The notes beneath the pieces were generated by a model. The model saw only the letters and a list, made by a program, of their open reading frames with translations. It was not told the DNA's origin and searched no databases. Positions 50,680 to 55,820 of a DNA stretch of 64,000 nt are shown piece by piece (position 1 is the first letter of the stretch; the number at the start of each line of letters is the position of its first letter). The DNA comes from Syntrophales bacterium (GTDB taxonomy: Bacteria > Desulfobacterota > Syntrophia > Syntrophales > UBA2210), in assembly GCA_963666365.2 (NCBI GenBank), contig CAXXNF010000002.1:1344001-1408000 (forward strand), given 5' to 3'. Position numbers and translations under genes: made by a program.

Positions 50680-51585
50680 ATGCAGGAAAAAGAAATCACC
50701 GCCTATCTTCGGGAGCGGGGCGCCGATCTTGTCGGCTTTGCCGCCGCCGACATGTGGGATGAGGACACCCGTGTACCGGAGGCCTACCGGCCGAAAGCAT
50801 TGTGGCCAAAGGCGCGATCGGTCATTGTCATAGGCATGGCAATGCCTCTTCCCATTGTGGAAACCACTCCCTCGGTACAGCACAGGGATCTCTACAATGC
50901 CTGCAATCGTTCCCTTGACGATCTTGCCTTCGATCTGGCCCGTCGGCTTGCCCGCGGGGGTCATGGTGCGATCCATCTCAGCAGAGACGGCTACGCCAAC
51001 ATCAACATCTTACTAAAGAACCCCCGGGCGGCTTTTTCCCACACGCGTGCCGCCTATTACGCGGGCCTCGGCTACATCGGAATCAACAACACCATTCTCA
51101 CCACTGAATTTGGCCCCCGCGTCCGCTTTGTCTCCCTTTTCACCGACGCCGTTCTCTCGGGAAACCCTCCCCTGGAAAAATCTCTCTGCATCCGATGCGG
51201 CGCCTGTTCGGCCTTCTGCCCCGCCGCAGCGCTTCCTGTCACGAAAGAAGAATTGCGGGACCCTGCGGTGACGGTCGCTCATTACGATCGTCTCGCCTGT
51301 GCGCTCTGGGCGCGAGAATTGACCAGGCGAGGCTGCTATCCCTGCGGCATCTGCATCAAGGTATGCCCTGTCGGCGAGGACAGGAAACTCTATGGAAGGG
51401 AAAAAGCACTCACCCATTACCGAAAGGAATTGAAAAGTTTGATCGACCATGCCCCTGATCCCCTCCATCGCGCCTGGATGCATATTCGCCGCCACGGAAG
51501 CCTTCTCTTTGATGAAGGCGCCGGTCCGGAGGACACCTTCTACAATGCCCTGGAGCACATCAGAAAAAAGAGCCGGGAGGAATGA
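50680..51585 (+). CDS. Epoxyqueuosine-reductase-like (COG1600) 2x4Fe-4S protein
   Basis: GADLVG, SVIVIG, FSH..AA..AGLG.IG.N, EFGPRVR, CIRCGACSAFCP, CGICIKVCP. Confidence 0.8.
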   Translation: MQEKEITAYLRERGADLVGFAAADMWDEDTRVPEAYRPKALWPKARSVIVIGMAMPLPIVETTPSVQHRDLYNACNRSLDDLAFDLARRLARGGHGAIHLSRDGYANINILLKNPRAAFSHTRAAYYAGLGYIGINNTILTTEFGPRVRFVSLFTDAVLSGNPPLEKSLCIRCGACSAFCPAAALPVTKEELRDPAVTVAHYDRLACALWARELTRRGCYPCGICIKVCPVGEDRKLYGREKALTHYRKELKSLIDHAPDPLHRAWMHIRRHGSLLFDEGAGPEDTFYNALEHIRKKSREE

Positions 51586-51586
51586 C

Positions 51587-52249
51587 ATGAAATCCGAGGC
51601 GGGCATACCATTTCTAATCGAAGAGTTCTGCGCTACCTGTGCAAGGGGACTGGCGGATCTGAAGGACAACCGGTCCCGTATCGCCTATGTTTCCCGCATC
51701 CTTCCTCCGCTCCTTGCACAAAAAGAGGTATTTAAGAAAATCCTTCACAATGTAATCGAAGGGGCGCCCTATCCTGATATTGAAAAACCCACCATGTTCA
51801 TCAATGAACTGATACTCCATCTCGATCCGGCGGGCCATTTTTCCCTGAGGATGTTTCTCTGGAGGCCCGGCGAATACGATCCTGTCCACGACCACAACTC
51901 CTGGGGCGTCATCGGCCCCGTATCGGGCAGGCTGGAGGTCATCACCTACAGACGACTCGATCGCGGCGGTTCAGGAAGACGGGCTCGCATCGTCGAAGAT
52001 GCCCGCCGCATAATCGCGCCGGGGGAATTTTACAGCGTGTATCCGCTTAATAGAGGCATCCATCAAACAGGAAATCCTGCAGACCGCACTCTAATCCAGG
52101 TGAGCATATACGGCAAGAAACAGACAAAAAGGAACTACATCAACACCTATGAGCCGGAAGGGGGATACATCACCCGCCTGTATCCGCCGAAACTGCAAAA
52201 AAAGTTCTTTGCGGAAGCGGCCCTTGCCGCACTGGCAAGGGACTCATAG
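51587..52249 (+). CDS. Cysteine/thiol dioxygenase-like cupin
   Basis: W.PG..DPVHDH.SWG and GIHQ (3-His), SIYG; starts 1 nt after the upstream stop. Confidence 0.75.
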   Translation: MKSEAGIPFLIEEFCATCARGLADLKDNRSRIAYVSRILPPLLAQKEVFKKILHNVIEGAPYPDIEKPTMFINELILHLDPAGHFSLRMFLWRPGEYDPVHDHNSWGVIGPVSGRLEVITYRRLDRGGSGRRARIVEDARRIIAPGEFYSVYPLNRGIHQTGNPADRTLIQVSIYGKKQTKRNYINTYEPEGGYITRLYPPKLQKKFFAEAALAALARDS

Positions 52250-52302
52250 GGGCGTATGAGGAAATGCATTGCAACATAACATTAGTAATATTCCCATTTT
52301 CC

Positions 52303-52331
52303 TTGACAATACCTCCCCTTTTTTATATAGA
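52303..52331 (+). promoter_or_regulatory. Sigma70-type promoter of the speD fusion
   Basis: TTGACA-17 bp-TATAGA. Confidence 0.55.
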
Positions 52332-52464
52332 GGACAGGCCTGTTAGCAATAGTCATTACCTCTCTTAAATGATTCAATGACGTGGCTCCCGTGCATACAT
52401 CCGAGCAGTGCACGGGGTATTATTTATCCCGATCAGGGGTAATAATATAGGAAGGATGCAAGCC

Positions 52465-53544
52465 ATGAAACCTACCGGAATCCAGCTCGTAGCTGAATTT
52501 TTTAACTGCGACACCGATATACTCAATAGCCGGGAGGCTCTCGAGAATATTCTGCGGGAGAGCATTGCCGCCTGCGGCGTAGGGCTCGTCAGTATCAGCA
52601 GTCATCTCTACGATCCCATAGGCATTACCTCGATTGCCGTCATAAGTGAATCGCACGTGGCGATTCACACCTATCCGGAAGCTCGTCATGCCTCCCTGGA
52701 CATTTTCACCTGCTCGAAGGACAATGAAGTGTCCTTTAGACTTATGGAATGTCTGAAAGAAAGAATGGGGCCCGGCACAACGCGCATTGCCGAGATTTCG
52801 AGAGGCAATCCCATAGAAGTGTCGCGAACGAACTGGATCACCGACGACACGGGTTCGATGGGATTCGACATCCGCTACCACATCCAGGAAGAGATCTTCA
52901 GCACCCAATCGATCTACCAGGAGATCAAGATCATTGAAAACGAAAGTTTCGGCCGAATGCTCTTCCTCGACAACGACCTGCAGATCGCCGAATTCGATGC
53001 ACATCTCTACAACGAGTGCATGGTACAACCCCTTGTTGAATCGGGCATGTCGCTGGATTCCGTGGCAATTCTGGGCGGCGGCGACGGAGGCGTACTGCAT
53101 GAACTGCTGAAGCACAATCCCGGAAAAGTCACTCTCGTCGACATCGACGAGGCGGTGGTTTCGGCCTGTCGCAGGCACATGCCGGGCATTTGTCGCGGCG
53201 CCTTTGACGACGAACGGGTTGCCGTCGTCTACGATGATGTATTCAGCTTTCTCTCCAGAATGGACCGCTATGATGCCGTCATCTATGACCTGACCATGCA
53301 CCCCGAAGCCTTTATCGACATGGAGCGCGATCTCTACCTGGAGGATCTTTTCGTCAAAATCAAAGCGTCGCTCAAAAAAGGCGGCCTCATTTCAGCACAA
53401 TGCTGCTCGTCCTATGATTATGAAACACTCGAGATGACTCGGTCGTTGCTGGGGAAGTTCTTTTCCCCCCTCACCATGACCGAGACCTACATTCCGTCCT
53501 ACTGCGTGCCCTGGACCTTCGCCCATGGGACAAATACCCTGTAA
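52465..53544 (+). CDS. Fused S-adenosylmethionine decarboxylase / aminopropyltransferase (spermidine/spermine synthase family)
   Basis: ISESHVAIHTYPE, DIFTC; then SIYQEI, FGRMLFLD, ILGGGDGG, VDID, IYDLT; start at 52465 or 52456. Confidence 0.9.
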   Translation: MKPTGIQLVAEFFNCDTDILNSREALENILRESIAACGVGLVSISSHLYDPIGITSIAVISESHVAIHTYPEARHASLDIFTCSKDNEVSFRLMECLKERMGPGTTRIAEISRGNPIEVSRTNWITDDTGSMGFDIRYHIQEEIFSTQSIYQEIKIIENESFGRMLFLDNDLQIAEFDAHLYNECMVQPLVESGMSLDSVAILGGGDGGVLHELLKHNPGKVTLVDIDEAVVSACRRHMPGICRGAFDDERVAVVYDDVFSFLSRMDRYDAVIYDLTMHPEAFIDMERDLYLEDLFVKIKASLKKGGLISAQCCSSYDYETLEMTRSLLGKFFSPLTMTETYIPSYCVPWTFAHGTNTL

Positions 53545-53590
53545 CGGGACACCTATCTCGTGCGTCTTCGATCAATTTGTTTTTCTTTAA

Positions 53591-53673
53591 TATTTGTGTT
53601 CATTCGTGTCTATTCGCGGTTGTTCTTCGCCAGGGCAGCACGGCGGATGAACGCCAATGGGCGCGCACGAATA
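53591..53673. repeat. Degenerate 10-mer array with inverted counterpart
   Basis: tatttgtgtt cattcgtgtc tattcgcggt ... acggcggatg aacgccaatg ... gcacgaata. Confidence 0.5.
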
Positions 53674-53698
53674 TGAAGTCTTTGTCTTATCTTCCCAC

Positions 53699-54277
53699 TC
53701 AGGCATATTTCAATTTGATTTTTCCGAGTTCCACCATTTCTTCATGCTCGACCATGCCGTAGAAGTCTATGACCTCTTTCACCGGTCCGTGCATTTCTCC
53801 CTTTCCCCTGATCTCGTACTCGTGCAGCGGCGCGTATGCCTCGACACCCTTCCCTTCGGGAAGCACTGTCTCTTTCGGGCCCGTCCCCTTCTCTATTCTC
53901 ATTCCTTCGGGAAGCGATCCGAAGAGTTTCTTGAATTTCTCTCCCAGTTCCCGCGTGTAGGCGCGATAGCTGAAATCAAAGTAGGCATCGCGGATTTCCC
54001 TGACATCTGCGATCTTAAGGTGCTCCTGCAACCCTCTGTTTTCGATTGACTGACGAATGAGATCGTGAAATCCGGATCCGACAATGAGCGTGGTCCGGCC
54101 TCCTCTGGCGCCGATCAGACGCATCAGCTGGCCAAATTTGCTTTCATCTTCCACATGGTGATCTTCATCGAAAATTGCCTCCCCCTGAATGCCTTTGCCT
54201 TCGAGAAATCCAAGGACGAAGCCCTTCATGAGATCAAAGGAACCATCGACGGTCACCTCATAATATTTTTTTATCAC
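53699..54277 (-). CDS. Hypothetical protein
   Basis: Open frame with protein-like composition following the antiporter; probable GTG start at 54277. Confidence 0.7.
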   Translation of the reverse strand: MIKKYYEVTVDGSFDLMKGFVLGFLEGKGIQGEAIFDEDHHVEDESKFGQLMRLIGARGGRTTLIVGSGFHDLIRQSIENRGLQEHLKIADVREIRDAYFDFSYRAYTRELGEKFKKLFGSLPEGMRIEKGTGPKETVLPEGKGVEAYAPLHEYEIRGKGEMHGPVKEVIDFYGMVEHEEMVELGKIKLKYA

Positions 54278-54317
54278 CTTTCGTTCACCTCGCCATTCAT
54301 AGTTCCGCACCGGTGCG

Positions 54318-55820
54318 TTATAAAAAGAATACAAACGTTACCACAAGGAATACGGGAATCAGTATCGGCAGGGAATACTTGATCATATAGCCGAAAAAGC
54401 TCGGCATGTTGATGCCCGCTTCTTCGGCGATCGATTTGACCATGAAGTTGGGCGCATTGCCGATGTAGGTGTTGGCGCCCATGAAGACGGCCCCCGCCGA
54501 AATCGCCTTCAGATAGGTGATAAAGGCGGGATTGCAGGTATCCGCCGCCGTGGCGACGGCTCCGGGAATGCAGGCCTCCGTCAACCCCAGCTTCCCCAGT
54601 GCCAGATTGAAAAACGTCAGATAGGTCGGGGCGTTGTCGAGAAACGATGAAAGGAAGCCCGTAACCCAGTAATAGTGGAAGGGTTCTTTCACAACTTCCA
54701 CGAGCCCCGCCATGGCCCCATGAGTGCCCGCTTTTAATATGGCCAGCGCGGGAATGATGGTCATGAAGATGCCGGCAAAGAGCTTCGCCACCTCGATGAT
54801 CGGAAACCAGCTGAAATCGTTCGCTTCCCGCAACCGCTTCGGCGTGGCAAAGAGCGAAAGTGCGCCCATAACGATAATGCCCAGGTCGCGGGCTGTATTC
54901 TGAAAGTGCACATGCACGCCCAGTACGTTGAAATGACCGGGCTTCCAGTAGCCGCTCATCAGAACAAGCGCAATGATGCCGAGGAGAAATATAAAATTGT
55001 AAGTGCCTTCCACCTTGAAGGGCTGTTTCTCCTCTGCCTCCACCACGCGGGCCTTTCCCTTTTTCATGTCACGGCGGTAGAATATCGTGTCCATGATGAA
55101 AAAAAGTGCCAGAAGAATCAGTGACGTCAACAGCATGTGGGGAAGGATTGCCGTCGTGACCCAGAAGAAGGGCACGTTATGTAAAAATCCGAGGAAAAGC
55201 GGGGGATCGCCAAGCGGCGTCAGCGACCCTCCGATATTCGCGACAAGAAATATAAAGAAGCAGATGACGTGCACCTTGCTCGCCCTGTCCTTGTTCGCCC
55301 TCAGAACCGGCCGGATCATCACCATGGCCGCACCGGTGGTGCCGACCCAGGAGGCCAGAATCGTGCCGATGAGCAGCATTATGGTATTTACCAGGGGCGT
55401 TCCCTTGAAGGACCCACCCACCACTATTCCGCCTGCAACGGTGAAAAGACCCCAGAGCAATATGATAAAGGGGATATAATCTATCACATAAATATGAACA
55501 ATCTCATATAAGGCCGTCCCGTGGTAAGCGAAGAGAAAGGGAACGGCGAACAGTACCGCCCAGAAGGCCGACACCTTGCCGAAATGATTGTGCCAGAAGT
55601 GGGGCACCAGGAGCGGGCAGAGCGCAATTGAAAGCAGGATGCCCGCGAATGGTATCACTGTCCATACCGGCAATATAGCGCCAATGTCGGGACCATGGTG
55701 CGCCGATGTCGCCTCTGCCGACGCCTCTGCCATCGACGGCGCCATGCACATAAGCAAGAGGATAATTCCCACGAGCACTAGTGAAAGAATTTCCCCGCCA
55801 TATCTTTTTTCATGACACAT
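54318..55820 (-). CDS. Putative sodium:proton antiporter (ion transporter superfamily)
   Basis: Many TM segments; NIGGSLTPLGDPPLFLGF, LSSFLDNAPTY, GANTYIGNAPNFMV. Confidence 0.88.
   Translation of the reverse strand: MCHEKRYGGEILSLVLVGIILLLMCMAPSMAEASAEATSAHHGPDIGAILPVWTVIPFAGILLSIALCPLLVPHFWHNHFGKVSAFWAVLFAVPFLFAYHGTALYEIVHIYVIDYIPFIILLWGLFTVAGGIVVGGSFKGTPLVNTIMLLIGTILASWVGTTGAAMVMIRPVLRANKDRASKVHVICFFIFLVANIGGSLTPLGDPPLFLGFLHNVPFFWVTTAILPHMLLTSLILLALFFIMDTIFYRRDMKKGKARVVEAEEKQPFKVEGTYNFIFLLGIIALVLMSGYWKPGHFNVLGVHVHFQNTARDLGIIVMGALSLFATPKRLREANDFSWFPIIEVAKLFAGIFMTIIPALAILKAGTHGAMAGLVEVVKEPFHYYWVTGFLSSFLDNAPTYLTFFNLALGKLGLTEACIPGAVATAADTCNPAFITYLKAISAGAVFMGANTYIGNAPNFMVKSIAEEAGINMPSFFGYMIKYSLPILIPVFLVVTFVFFL

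What the first reader, a model, noticed from the sequence alone, without database searches (positions are those of the whole stretch)
52465..53544. AdoMetDC-aminopropyltransferase fusion that resembles animal spermine synthase
Seen: intact pyruvoyl self-cleavage motif (SESH), then YHIQEEIF...SIYQEIKI...FGRML.L..D...AE.D, ILGGGDGG.L.E..K..P..VT, VIYDLT..P and IPSY...W.F. Known: metazoan spermine synthase is a degenerate AdoMetDC domain fused to a transferase with LGGGDGG, INDLT..P and VPSY...W.F, whereas typical SpeE has DSxDP. Inference from remembered motifs: a bacterial member near the origin of animal spermine synthase with a still-active decarboxylase, possibly making tetra-amines.
Basis: partly seen in the sequence, partly recalled or inferred. 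Interest (0 to 1): 0.7.

Follow-up and report, generated by a model that had tools for sequence, protein, structure and literature searches.

The report
Bacterial SAM decarboxylase–aminopropyltransferase fusion enzyme
This gene encodes one protein that both makes and uses the aminopropyl donor for spermidine (perhaps spermine) synthesis; the family is already published as the likely bacterial source of animal spermine synthase.

Summary
Window 52465-53544 (+) is an intact 359-aa ORF: a class 1b S-adenosylmethionine decarboxylase (aa 1-118) fused to a polyamine aminopropyltransferase (aa 124-349).

Li et al. [quoted passage not shown] They tested two such bacterial fusions: both had decarboxylase activity and both made spermine.

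Two qualifications apply to this protein:
- The quoted motifs are not diagnostic. GGGDGG, DLT and IPSY..W also occur in ordinary, Thermus-type or plant thermospermine enzymes.
- It belongs to a Syntrophales subclade with the Syntrophus aciditrophicus fusion (59% identical), which the literature calls an AdoMetDC-SpdSyn fusion. All 58 subclade members have Asp at the "motif 3" position, where human spermine synthase has Glu. None of the 58 has the Glu at position 348 that 67 of 78 members of the neighbouring group have.

Spermidine is therefore the safest predicted product; spermine is unresolved.

In this genome the gene is the only AdoMetDC and the only soluble aminopropyltransferase found. 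An arginine decarboxylase-agmatinase pair elsewhere can supply putrescine. The gene is a new orthologue of a known kind, of low novelty.

The parts
52450..52455 (+). Shine-Dalgarno-like GGAAGG, 9 nt upstream of the ATG
   Evidence: Read directly from the sequence. The simple scan found no sigma-70 consensus promoter upstream.
52465..53544 (+). CDS of the 359-aa AdoMetDC-aminopropyltransferase fusion, including the TAA stop
52465..52818 (+). Class 1b S-adenosylmethionine decarboxylase proenzyme domain (aa 1-118)
52648..52653 (+). E62-S63, the predicted self-cleavage site; S63 would become the pyruvoyl group
   Evidence: The processed T. maritima chains align to it exactly: 3iwb_B (62 aa) to query 1-62, and 3iwb_A residues 2-56 to query 64-119. 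The PDB title of 1tmi names an S63A non-processing mutant. S63 is present in 172 of 172 and E62 in 159 of 172 family members.
52666..52668 (+). H68 codon, a conserved AdoMetDC active-site histidine (its role is recalled from the T. maritima literature)
   Evidence: Present in 172 of 172 family members.
52711..52713 (+). C83 codon, a conserved AdoMetDC active-site cysteine (its role is recalled)
   Evidence: Present in 169 of 172 family members.
52804..52866 (+). Inter-domain linker (aa 114-134), modelled with low confidence
   Evidence: pLDDT is below 50 at aa 114-121 and 130-134.
52834..52992 (+). N-terminal beta-strand subdomain of the aminopropyltransferase (aa 124-176)
   Evidence: PF17284, E 1.2e-11.
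53005..53511 (+). Catalytic Rossmann-type aminopropyltransferase domain (aa 181-349)
53074..53091 (+). GGGDGG loop. D207 aligns with the Asp of GGGDGG in human SMS, taken to be D201 ('motif 2' of Li et al. 2024)
   Evidence: The alignment to 3c6k is shown. D201 and D276 are named as the human active-site residues in PMC3585406 (passages). The mapping to D201 assumes that the 15 extra residues of the 381-aa chain are an N-terminal tag. D207 is present in 166 of 172 family members.
53140..53142 (+). D226 ('motif 3', in LVDID); human SMS has Glu at this position (VEID)
   Evidence: The alignment pairs 'vtlvdid' with 'VTMVEID'. Group A has D in 58 of 58; group B has D in 55 and E in 23 of 78. The SpmSyn sequence rule is in PMC11107197 section 10.
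53287..53289 (+). D275 in YDLTMHPE, the second catalytic Asp
   Evidence: Present in 172 of 172 family members. It aligns with the D of 'iiDLT' in Thermus and Pyrobaculum SpeE. Equivalence to human D276 is inferred; no call displayed it.
53506..53508 (+). V348 in IPSYCVPW, the position that separates the Syntrophales subclade from the PSFCExW subgroup
   Evidence: Group A has E in 0 of 58 (T 35, S 15, V 5, M/A/G 1 each). Group B has E in 67 of 78. Medicago thermospermine synthase has Asp aligned here.

Best explanation
The gene encodes a bifunctional polyamine enzyme.

1. The N-terminal class 1b AdoMetDC proenzyme cuts itself between E62 and S63. S63 becomes the pyruvoyl cofactor. The result is a 62-residue beta chain plus an alpha chain that stays covalently joined to the aminopropyltransferase.
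2. The decarboxylase domain converts S-adenosylmethionine to decarboxylated AdoMet.
3. The C-terminal domain (GGGDGG/D207, D275) transfers the aminopropyl group to putrescine, giving spermidine.

Putrescine would come from the pyruvoyl arginine decarboxylase-agmatinase pair found elsewhere in the genome.

Shown here: the domain architecture, the conserved residues, the genome inventory, and clade membership with the S. aciditrophicus fusion. Inferred: autoprocessing, both activities, a dimeric state, and the product. I take spermidine to be the principal product, with further conversion to spermine possible but unresolved.
For: Domains:
- Both domains score above the Pfam cut-offs, and the decarboxylase scores above its NCBIfam equivalog cut-off.
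- The cleavage site aligns exactly with the processed T. maritima chains.
- Across 172 fusion proteins: S63 and H68 in 172 of 172; D228 and D275 in 172 of 172; C83 in 169; D207 in 166.

Genome inventory (94% complete):
- One AdoMet_dc match, which is this gene.
- Two Spermine_synth matches: this gene and a 717-aa membrane protein.
- No nspC match.
- Agmatinase (241.8 bits, cut-off 174.3) directly followed by PvlArgDC (200.9 bits).

Relatives:
- 59% identity (213 of 358, no gaps) to S. aciditrophicus SB WP_049749883.1.
- Both sit in a 9-row clade with SH-aLRT 97.
- Li et al. 2025 cite Green et al. 2011 for 'bacterial AdoMetDC-SpdSyn fusion proteins' (passage).
- Two other bacterial fusions showed AdoMetDC activity in E. 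coli speD mutants (section 7).

Favouring spermidine over spermine:
- Motif 3 is Asp, not the Glu of the SpmSyn rule in Li et al. 2024.
- There is no acidic residue at position 348.
Against: - No experiment exists on this protein.
- Both bacterial fusions of this general kind tested by Li et al. 2025, one of them a 358-aa 'deltaproteobacterium' protein, made spermine plus some spermidine. Spermine may therefore be the real end product here too.
- I could not obtain those two sequences, so I could not place them relative to this subclade.
- The authors of the motif 2/3 rule say it is skewed towards Bacillota.
- The role of the residue at position 348 rests on my recollection of human E353.
- My statement that the S. 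aciditrophicus enzyme makes spermidine is recalled from the abstract of Green et al. 2011, which is not held.
- All NCBIfam aminopropyltransferase equivalog models score below their cut-offs (165.3 against 260; 142.2 against 249.55).
- No RNA evidence was available.
Confidence: 0.5

Rival explanations
1. Same bifunctional architecture, but the transferase is a true spermine synthase. It converts putrescine to spermidine and then efficiently to spermine, like the two AdoMetDC-SpmSyn fusions characterised by Li et al. 2025.
For: - Both tested bacterial fusions of this kind made spermine. The deltaproteobacterial one made about 10,000-fold more spermine than thermospermine (section 7 and Table 3).
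- Motif 2 is Asp with Gly two residues downstream (D207, G209), as in all SpmSyns of Li et al. 2024.
- Human SMS is the top PDB hit for aa 81-249 (74.5 bits) and the only two-domain structural match.
- 3c6k scores 90 bits with this protein, against only 48-57 bits with Thermus/ACL5-type standalone enzymes.
Against: - Motif 3 is Asp (58 of 58 in the subclade), whereas the SpmSyn rule and human SMS have Glu.
- Position 348 is not acidic in 58 of 58 subclade members, against Glu in 67 of 78 in the neighbouring group.
- The nearest characterised relative is referred to as an AdoMetDC-SpdSyn fusion.
Confidence: 0.33
2. The transferase acts on agmatine rather than putrescine. It would make N1-aminopropylagmatine, which the agmatinase-family enzyme then hydrolyses to spermidine (the Thermus/Thermococcus-type route).
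For: - The best sequence hits in the PDB are the T. thermophilus triamine/agmatine aminopropyltransferase (109 bits) and Pyrobaculum SpeE (108.6 bits), which share the D-L-T motif.
- The genome has arginine decarboxylase next to an agmatinase-family ureohydrolase.
- Li et al. 2024 report that Spd/N1-APAgm synthases cannot be told apart by their motifs.
Against: - In the trees the fusion clade is separate from the Thermus/ACL5-type clade.
- Motif 2 is Asp, not the Glu seen in Thermus and Pyrobaculum (alignments).
- The ureohydrolase passes the agmatinase equivalog cut-off.
- The tested fusions made spermidine in E. coli, which supplies putrescine.
Confidence: 0.1
3. The product is another polyamine, such as thermospermine, norspermidine or norspermine.
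For: - Motif 3 is Asp, as in thermospermine synthases. Two TspmSyns with Asp in motif 2 are known.
- Ca. Pelagibacter fusions produce Spm/Tspm (passage).
Against: - The protein lies outside the Thermus/ACL5-type clade.
- The tested relatives strongly favour spermine over thermospermine.
Confidence: 0.04
4. The decarboxylase domain is only structural, as in animals, or the fusion is an assembly or frameshift artefact joining two genes.
For: Animal SpmSyn keeps an inactive AdoMetDC-like domain for dimerisation.
Against: - All processing and catalytic residues are intact and conserved.
- It is the only AdoMet_dc match in the genome, so an aminopropyl donor would otherwise be missing.
- Full-length fused orthologues occur in 10 of 41 related genomes, including this one, and in all 120 listed database hits.
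Confidence: 0.03

Closest known systems
Syntrophus aciditrophicus SB AdoMetDC-aminopropyltransferase fusion (WP_049749883.1 / ABC76583.1; Green et al. 2011, Mol Microbiol, not held here)
   Same: - Same architecture and length (358 against 359 aa).
- 59% identity without gaps.
- Same well-supported subclade (SH-aLRT 97).
- Same Asp at motif 3 and a non-acidic residue at position 348 (IPSYGSMW against IPSYCVPW).
   Different: - 41% of residues differ.
- That protein was tested experimentally; spermidine synthesis in a Salmonella speDE mutant is recalled from the abstract, which I did not read here. This protein is untested.
Bacterial AdoMetDC-SpmSyn fusions of Li et al. 2025 (deltaproteobacterium MBW2649524, 358 aa; Ca. 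Krumholzibacteria MCK4773364, 376 aa)
   Same: Class 1b AdoMetDC fused to an aminopropyltransferase, of similar length. Published as the bacterial kind from which animal SpmSyn was acquired.
   Different: - Their sequences could not be retrieved. None of the 30 clusters looked up held either accession, so identity and subclade are unknown.
- They make spermine. This protein's product is unknown and its motif 3 and position 348 differ from human SMS.
Human spermine synthase (PDB 3C6K/3C6M)
   Same: - Two-domain layout: an AdoMetDC-like N-terminal domain, then a beta subdomain, then a Rossmann-type transferase.
- The GGGDGG loop is identical.
   Different: - Only 23-24% identity.
- The human N-terminal domain has lost AdoMetDC activity, whereas here E62/S63/H68/C83 are intact.
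- Human has Glu at motif 3 (VEID); this protein has Asp (VDID).
- The C-terminal 110 aa show no detectable sequence match.
Thermotoga maritima AdoMetDC (class 1b; PDB 1TLU, 1VR7, 3IWB)
   Same: - The cleavage site is at the same residue number.
   Different: It is a stand-alone protein of about 130 aa. Here the alpha chain continues into a transferase.
Thermus thermophilus and Pyrobaculum calidifontis SpeE (1UIR/3ANX, 7XIF)
   Same: Best sequence hits for the transferase domain (109 and 108.6 bits), and a shared D-L-T motif.
   Different: - Stand-alone enzymes.
- GGGEGA rather than GGGDGG.
- A different clade in the trees.
E. coli SpeE / SpeD (ordinary spermidine synthase with a separate class 1a decarboxylase)
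   Same: The same two reactions.
   Different: - Separate genes.
- E. coli SpeE served as the outgroup, and this protein lies far from it.
- The NCBIfam SpeE equivalog cut-offs are not reached.

Membership tests
Class 1b (Bacillus/Thermotoga-type) S-adenosylmethionine decarboxylase | Profile match above the curated cut-offs | tested here: met
   PF02675 scores 94.4 against 25. TIGR03330 scores 94.4 against 75.65.
Class 1b (Bacillus/Thermotoga-type) S-adenosylmethionine decarboxylase | Glu-Ser self-processing site and conserved His and Cys | tested here: met
   E62/S63 align with the ends of the processed T. maritima chains. H68 and C83 are present and near-invariant.
Class 1b (Bacillus/Thermotoga-type) S-adenosylmethionine decarboxylase | Autoprocessing to a pyruvoyl enzyme, and decarboxylase activity | not testable with these tools
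   Needs protein expression with mass spectrometry, or speD complementation.
Polyamine aminopropyltransferase superfamily (PF01564 + PF17284) | Profile matches above cut-offs, the GGGDGG loop and two catalytic Asp residues | tested here: met
   PF01564 scores 107.2 against 22.9. PF17284 scores 44.8 against 22.1. D207 and D275 are conserved.
Ordinary SpeE spermidine synthase (NCBIfam equivalogs TIGR00417, NF002010) | Score above the equivalog cut-off | tested here: not met
   142.2 against 249.55, and 165.3 against 260. The protein is not near E. coli SpeE in the trees.
Bacterial AdoMetDC-aminopropyltransferase fusions (Green 2011; Li 2025) | [quoted passage not shown] | tested here: met
   All 120 listed homologues carry the three domains. 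The protein is in a clade with the S. aciditrophicus fusion.
Bacterial AdoMetDC-SpmSyn fusions sensu Li 2025 | Spermine synthase activity | not testable with these tools
   Needs LC-MS/MS of expressing strains.
Bacterial AdoMetDC-SpmSyn fusions sensu Li 2025 | SpmSyn sequence pattern of Li 2024: Asp in motif 2, Gly at +2, Glu in motif 3 | tested here: not met
   D207 and G209 fit the pattern, but motif 3 is D226. The authors say the rule is phylogenetically skewed, so this lowers the SpmSyn reading without excluding it.
Animal-type spermine synthase | AdoMetDC-like N-terminal domain plus transferase, as a two-domain fold | tested here: met
   3c6m/3c6k are the top Foldseek hits across both domains. 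VIA-align aligns 332 residues.
Animal-type spermine synthase | N-terminal domain catalytically dead (structural only) | tested here: not met
   The catalytic residues are intact. The animal domain lost its function, according to Li 2025.
Animal-type spermine synthase | Transferase domain closer to animal SMS than to other aminopropyltransferases | tested here: inconclusive
   3c6k scores 90 bits against a best of 109, and 135.5 against 140.1 with the family profile. Its relative score is still far higher than for Thermus/ACL5-type enzymes. No animal sequences could be put in a tree.

The most novel reading that the evidence does not exclude
The AdoMetDC-aminopropyltransferase fusion family may split into two functional types.

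- A Syntrophales-centred subclade, which includes this gene. It has Asp at motif 3 and Thr/Ser/Val at position 348, and would stop at spermidine.
- A PSFCExW subgroup. It has Glu at position 348 and, in 26 of the 172 aligned fusion proteins, also Glu at motif 3, as in human SMS. It would make spermine.

If so, one or two acidic residues would be the switch that created spermine synthase activity before the gene moved into the animal lineage. This window's enzyme would then be the natural 'before' state for testing that switch.
Probability: 0.25. Interest if true: 0.45.

Novelty: already known. Interest (0 to 1): 0.2.

Why it matters
The family matters because it is the published bacterial source of animal spermine synthase, whose loss causes Snyder-Robinson syndrome in humans. 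It also shows substrate channelling by gene fusion.

This particular gene adds one more orthologue. It may be useful as a comparison point: a member of a subclade that lacks two acidic residues present in many other family members, one of which was shown here to match human SMS. That could help identify which residues decide between spermidine and spermine synthesis. For the organism, the gene appears to be the only recognisable route to spermidine.

Tried and rejected
Sequences I could not obtain:
- Animal spermine synthase sequences for a tree. The representatives search with the transferase domain listed only the best 150 proteins (lowest 110.9 bits). I Pfam-scanned 32 of these, the ones 333 aa or longer from rank 24 down, and looked up 10 clusters. 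None was an animal protein.
- MBW2649524 and MCK4773364. Three cluster look-ups covering 30 clusters did not find them. The supplement of Li 2025 was searched only for these two accession numbers; the two rows found give names and accessions.

Papers not held: Green 2011, Pegg & Michael 2010 and Wu 2008. What I say about them is recalled, or taken from citing passages. The role of human Glu353 could not be verified in the library.

Searches with nothing useful:
- Three literature searches found no paper holding all terms: Syntrophus aciditrophicus with fusion terms, Delftia acidovorans with fusion terms, and Syntrophus with polyamine terms.
- C-terminal segments did not match 3c6k: this protein at E<=1 and P0090 at E<=10.
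- The search for related loci returned only 5 loci.
- tblastn found no agmatinase or arginine decarboxylase next to the fusion in 14 related loci. The neighbours in the window are unrelated to polyamines. No operon context was found.
- Rfam found no match at E<=1 in 52150-53750.
- The promoter scan found no upstream sigma-70 consensus.
- Sequencing runs: no RNA holder is listed, and I laid no reads.
- The search of earlier findings had nothing for this genome.

Not run:
- Complex prediction; dimerisation is inferred only.
Full report
THE OBSERVATION

Window 52465-53544 (+) is an intact ORF of 359 codons ending in TAA. ATG 52465 is preceded by GGAAGG at 52450-52455, and it is where homologues start: all 20 aligned proteins begin M-[KR]-P there, although two carry longer called N-termini.

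Pfam finds three domains, all above cut-off:
- AdoMet_dc, aa 8-114, E 6.6e-27
- Spermine_synt_N, aa 124-176, E 1.2e-11
- Spermine_synth, aa 181-349, E 9.3e-31

NCBIfam places the N-terminal domain in the Bacillus-type AdoMetDC equivalog (94.4 bits, cut-off 75.65). Every aminopropyltransferase equivalog model stays below its cut-off; the best is 165.3 against 260.

ANATOMY

The decarboxylase part aligns residue for residue with the processed chains of T. maritima AdoMetDC. The 62-aa chain 3iwb_B matches aa 1-62, and residues 2-56 of chain 3iwb_A match aa 64-119. Self-cleavage is therefore predicted between E62 and S63. The PDB title of 1tmi names an S63A non-processing mutant.

Conservation was:
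- S63 and H68: 172 of 172
- E62: 159 of 172
- C83: 169 of 172
- D207, in GGGDGG: 166 of 172
- D228 and D275: 172 of 172
- W350: 168 of 172

An AlphaFold2 model built on a 20-sequence alignment has mean pLDDT 87.8 and pTM 0.67. The linker (aa 114-134) is modelled with low confidence.

RELATIVES AND DISTRIBUTION

The large protein search gave 514 hits at E<=0.001 among 2573 candidates. All 120 listed carry the same three Pfam domains, are 355-380 aa long and are 49-98% identical. Where they are named, they come from Syntrophales, 'Deltaproteobacteria', WOR-3, Omnitrophica, Nitrospirae, Latescibacterota, Scalindua and a Heimdallarchaeota MAG.

Full-length fused orthologues were found as follows:
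- In 10 of 41 related genomes, counting this one: 8 of 24 other genomes of the same family and 1 of 16 from other families of the order.
- In 4 of 301 genomes, counting this one, drawn evenly from the phylum, at E<=1e-60.

The gene is therefore patchy. It is concentrated in this family and scattered elsewhere.

GENOME CONTEXT

The assembly has 4.0 Mb in 2 contigs and is 94% complete.
- This gene is the only AdoMet_dc match.
- It is one of two Spermine_synth matches. The other is a 717-aa membrane protein.
- No nspC (carboxyspermidine decarboxylase) match was found.
- An agmatinase above its equivalog cut-off is directly followed by a pyruvoyl arginine decarboxylase at C2:552607-554038. A route from arginine through agmatine to putrescine is therefore available.

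The window neighbours are unrelated to polyamines: a DinB-type polymerase, an Fe-S protein, two ORFs without a Pfam family, a CitMHS_2 transporter and ATP synthase genes. No Rfam element lies at or beside the gene.

COMPARISON WITH ANIMAL SPERMINE SYNTHASE

By structure:
- The six best Foldseek rows in the PDB are human SMS chains (3c6m/3c6k): E 1.7e-27 to 6.7e-26, 363-368 columns, 23-24% identity. They are the only entries aligned across both domains. Thermus SpeE follows with about 240 columns.

By sequence:
- Whole protein: 3c6k ranks seventh (90.3 bits) behind Thermus (109.4) and Pyrobaculum (108.6).
- aa 81-249: 3c6k ranks first (74.5 bits), because the alignment runs back into the linker.
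- C-terminal 110 aa: 3c6k is absent at E<=1.
- Family profile: 3c6k scores 135.5 bits against a best of 140.1.
- Contrast: two standalone enzymes from the neighbouring clade score 226/189 bits to Thermus SpeE (the second scores 189 to Medicago thermospermine synthase and 181 to Thermus SpeE) but only 47.8 and 56.5 bits to 3c6k, their weakest aminopropyltransferase hit.

The fusion family is thus relatively much nearer to human SMS than those enzymes are, but it is not uniquely nearest.
- GGGDGG with the B. subtilis and Plasmodium spermidine synthases
- D-L-T with the Thermus and Pyrobaculum SpeE enzymes
- IPSY..W with Medicago thermospermine synthase

TREES

I started from 167 proteins: 17 and the 150 representatives.
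- 150 passed a filter of at least 195 covered domain positions. The other 17, which were fragments, were dropped.
- E. coli SpeE was added as the outgroup.

In the FastTree:
- This protein lies in a clade of 73 rows (support 98): 46 fusions, 26 short standalone proteins and 1 other.
- That clade is separate from a 60-row clade of mostly standalone enzymes (52 of 60).

In a 64-row IQ-TREE 'quick' tree, this protein and the S. aciditrophicus SB enzyme fall in a 9-row clade with SH-aLRT 97. That clade is nested in a 42-row fusion-type clade (SH-aLRT 87; 92 for the inner 40 rows).

Longer fusions of 427-515 aa sit among Thermus/ACL5-type enzymes. These look like independent fusion events.

No animal sequences could be included.

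WHAT IS ALREADY PUBLISHED

Li et al. 2025 (PMC12803844). I read the abstract, sections 5 and 7, and 'fusion' passages.
- Animal SpmSyn was acquired horizontally as a bacterial AdoMetDC-SpmSyn fusion.
- The closest bacterial matches to animal SpmSyns are 30-32% identical and are mostly class 1b AdoMetDC-aminopropyltransferase fusions.
- Two of these, MBW2649524 and MCK4773364, complemented speD and made spermine plus some spermidine.
- The paper cites Green et al. 2011 for 'bacterial AdoMetDC-SpdSyn fusion proteins'.

Li et al. 2024 (PMC11107197). I read section 10 and passages. It gives a sequence pattern for SpmSyns: Asp in motif 2, Gly two residues later, and Glu in motif 3.

WHAT IS SPECIFIC TO THIS PROTEIN

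Its nearest named relative is the S. aciditrophicus SB fusion, WP_049749883.1, found by cluster look-up. The two are 59% identical over 358 residues without gaps.

I split the 172 fusions by identity to this protein:

| Feature | Group A (>=57% identity, n=58) | Group B (45-57% identity, n=78) |
|---|---|---|
| Motif 3 (position 226) | Asp 58 of 58 | Asp 55, Glu 23 |
| Position 348 | Glu 0 of 58 (Thr 35, Ser 15, Val 5, Met/Ala/Gly 1 each) | Glu 67 of 78 |

- Position 348 is the only charged residue in the transferase domain that separates the two groups.
- Human SMS has Glu at motif 3 (VEID against VDID here).
- Medicago thermospermine synthase has Asp aligned with position 348.
- I recall, but could not verify, that human Glu353 sits at this position and binds the distal amine of spermidine.
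- Across all 172 aligned fusion proteins, 26 have both Glu residues. This protein has neither.

MECHANISM AND ODDS

The proenzyme is predicted to self-cleave at E62|S63. The pyruvoyl enzyme then makes decarboxylated AdoMet, and the tethered transferase uses it on putrescine.

| Reading | Probability |
|---|---|
| Spermidine is the principal product | 0.50 |
| True spermine synthase | 0.33 |
| Agmatine route | 0.10 |
| Other products | 0.04 |
| Inactive domain or artefact | 0.03 |

Shown here: the architecture, the conserved residues, the genome inventory and the clade. Inferred: processing, both activities, and the product.

VERDICT

The gene is a correctly spotted, intact member of a published enzyme family. 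The resemblance to animal spermine synthase is real at the level of architecture. The motif argument is weak, and this subclade is probably not the most SMS-like branch of the family. Novelty is low. The one testable new lead is the Asp/Glu (motif 3) and Thr-Ser-Val/Glu (position 348) split within the family.

Noticed in passing
own genome G000:C1, locus L002 556-2709 (-): A 717-aa predicted membrane protein with an internal Spermine_synth domain (82 bits). It is the only other aminopropyltransferase-like gene in the genome. Open frames of about 716-834 aa with weak matches to the query occur in many of the 41 related genomes. Li et al. 2025 say that bacterial proteins of this membrane/APT-like kind were shown not to take part in spermidine or spermine synthesis.
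   Followed up: partly
own genome G000:C2:552607-554038 (loci L020/L021): An agmatinase (241.8 bits, above its equivalog cut-off) is directly followed by a pyruvoyl-dependent arginine decarboxylase (200.9 bits). This is a likely putrescine-supply operon, about 840 kb from the fusion gene.
   Followed up: partly
protein P0280 (340 aa, unnamed metagenomic contig): A member of the fusion-type transferase clade, on a long branch. Its N-terminal 125 aa or so give no AdoMet_dc match (Pfam E<=1e-5, local HMM E<=1e-3), and I saw no SESH-type site on reading the sequence. It may be a bacterial counterpart of the decayed N-terminal domain of animal spermine synthase.
   Followed up: no
proteins P0182, P0192, P0196, P0207, P0223, P0264, P0279 (427-515 aa): Longer AdoMetDC-aminopropyltransferase fusions whose transferase domains group with Thermus/ACL5-type or basal standalone enzymes, not with this family. 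They look like independent fusion events.
   Followed up: partly
proteins such as P0138, P0140, P0163, P0166 (221-260 aa): 26 of the 73 rows in the fusion-type clade are short proteins carrying only the transferase domain. They could be split genes with a separate speD, or truncated metagenomic gene calls. This was not resolved.
   Followed up: no
window 51449-52249 (+) and 53699-54334 (-): The two ORFs that flank the fusion gene (266 and 211 aa) have no Pfam family at E<=0.001.
   Followed up: no
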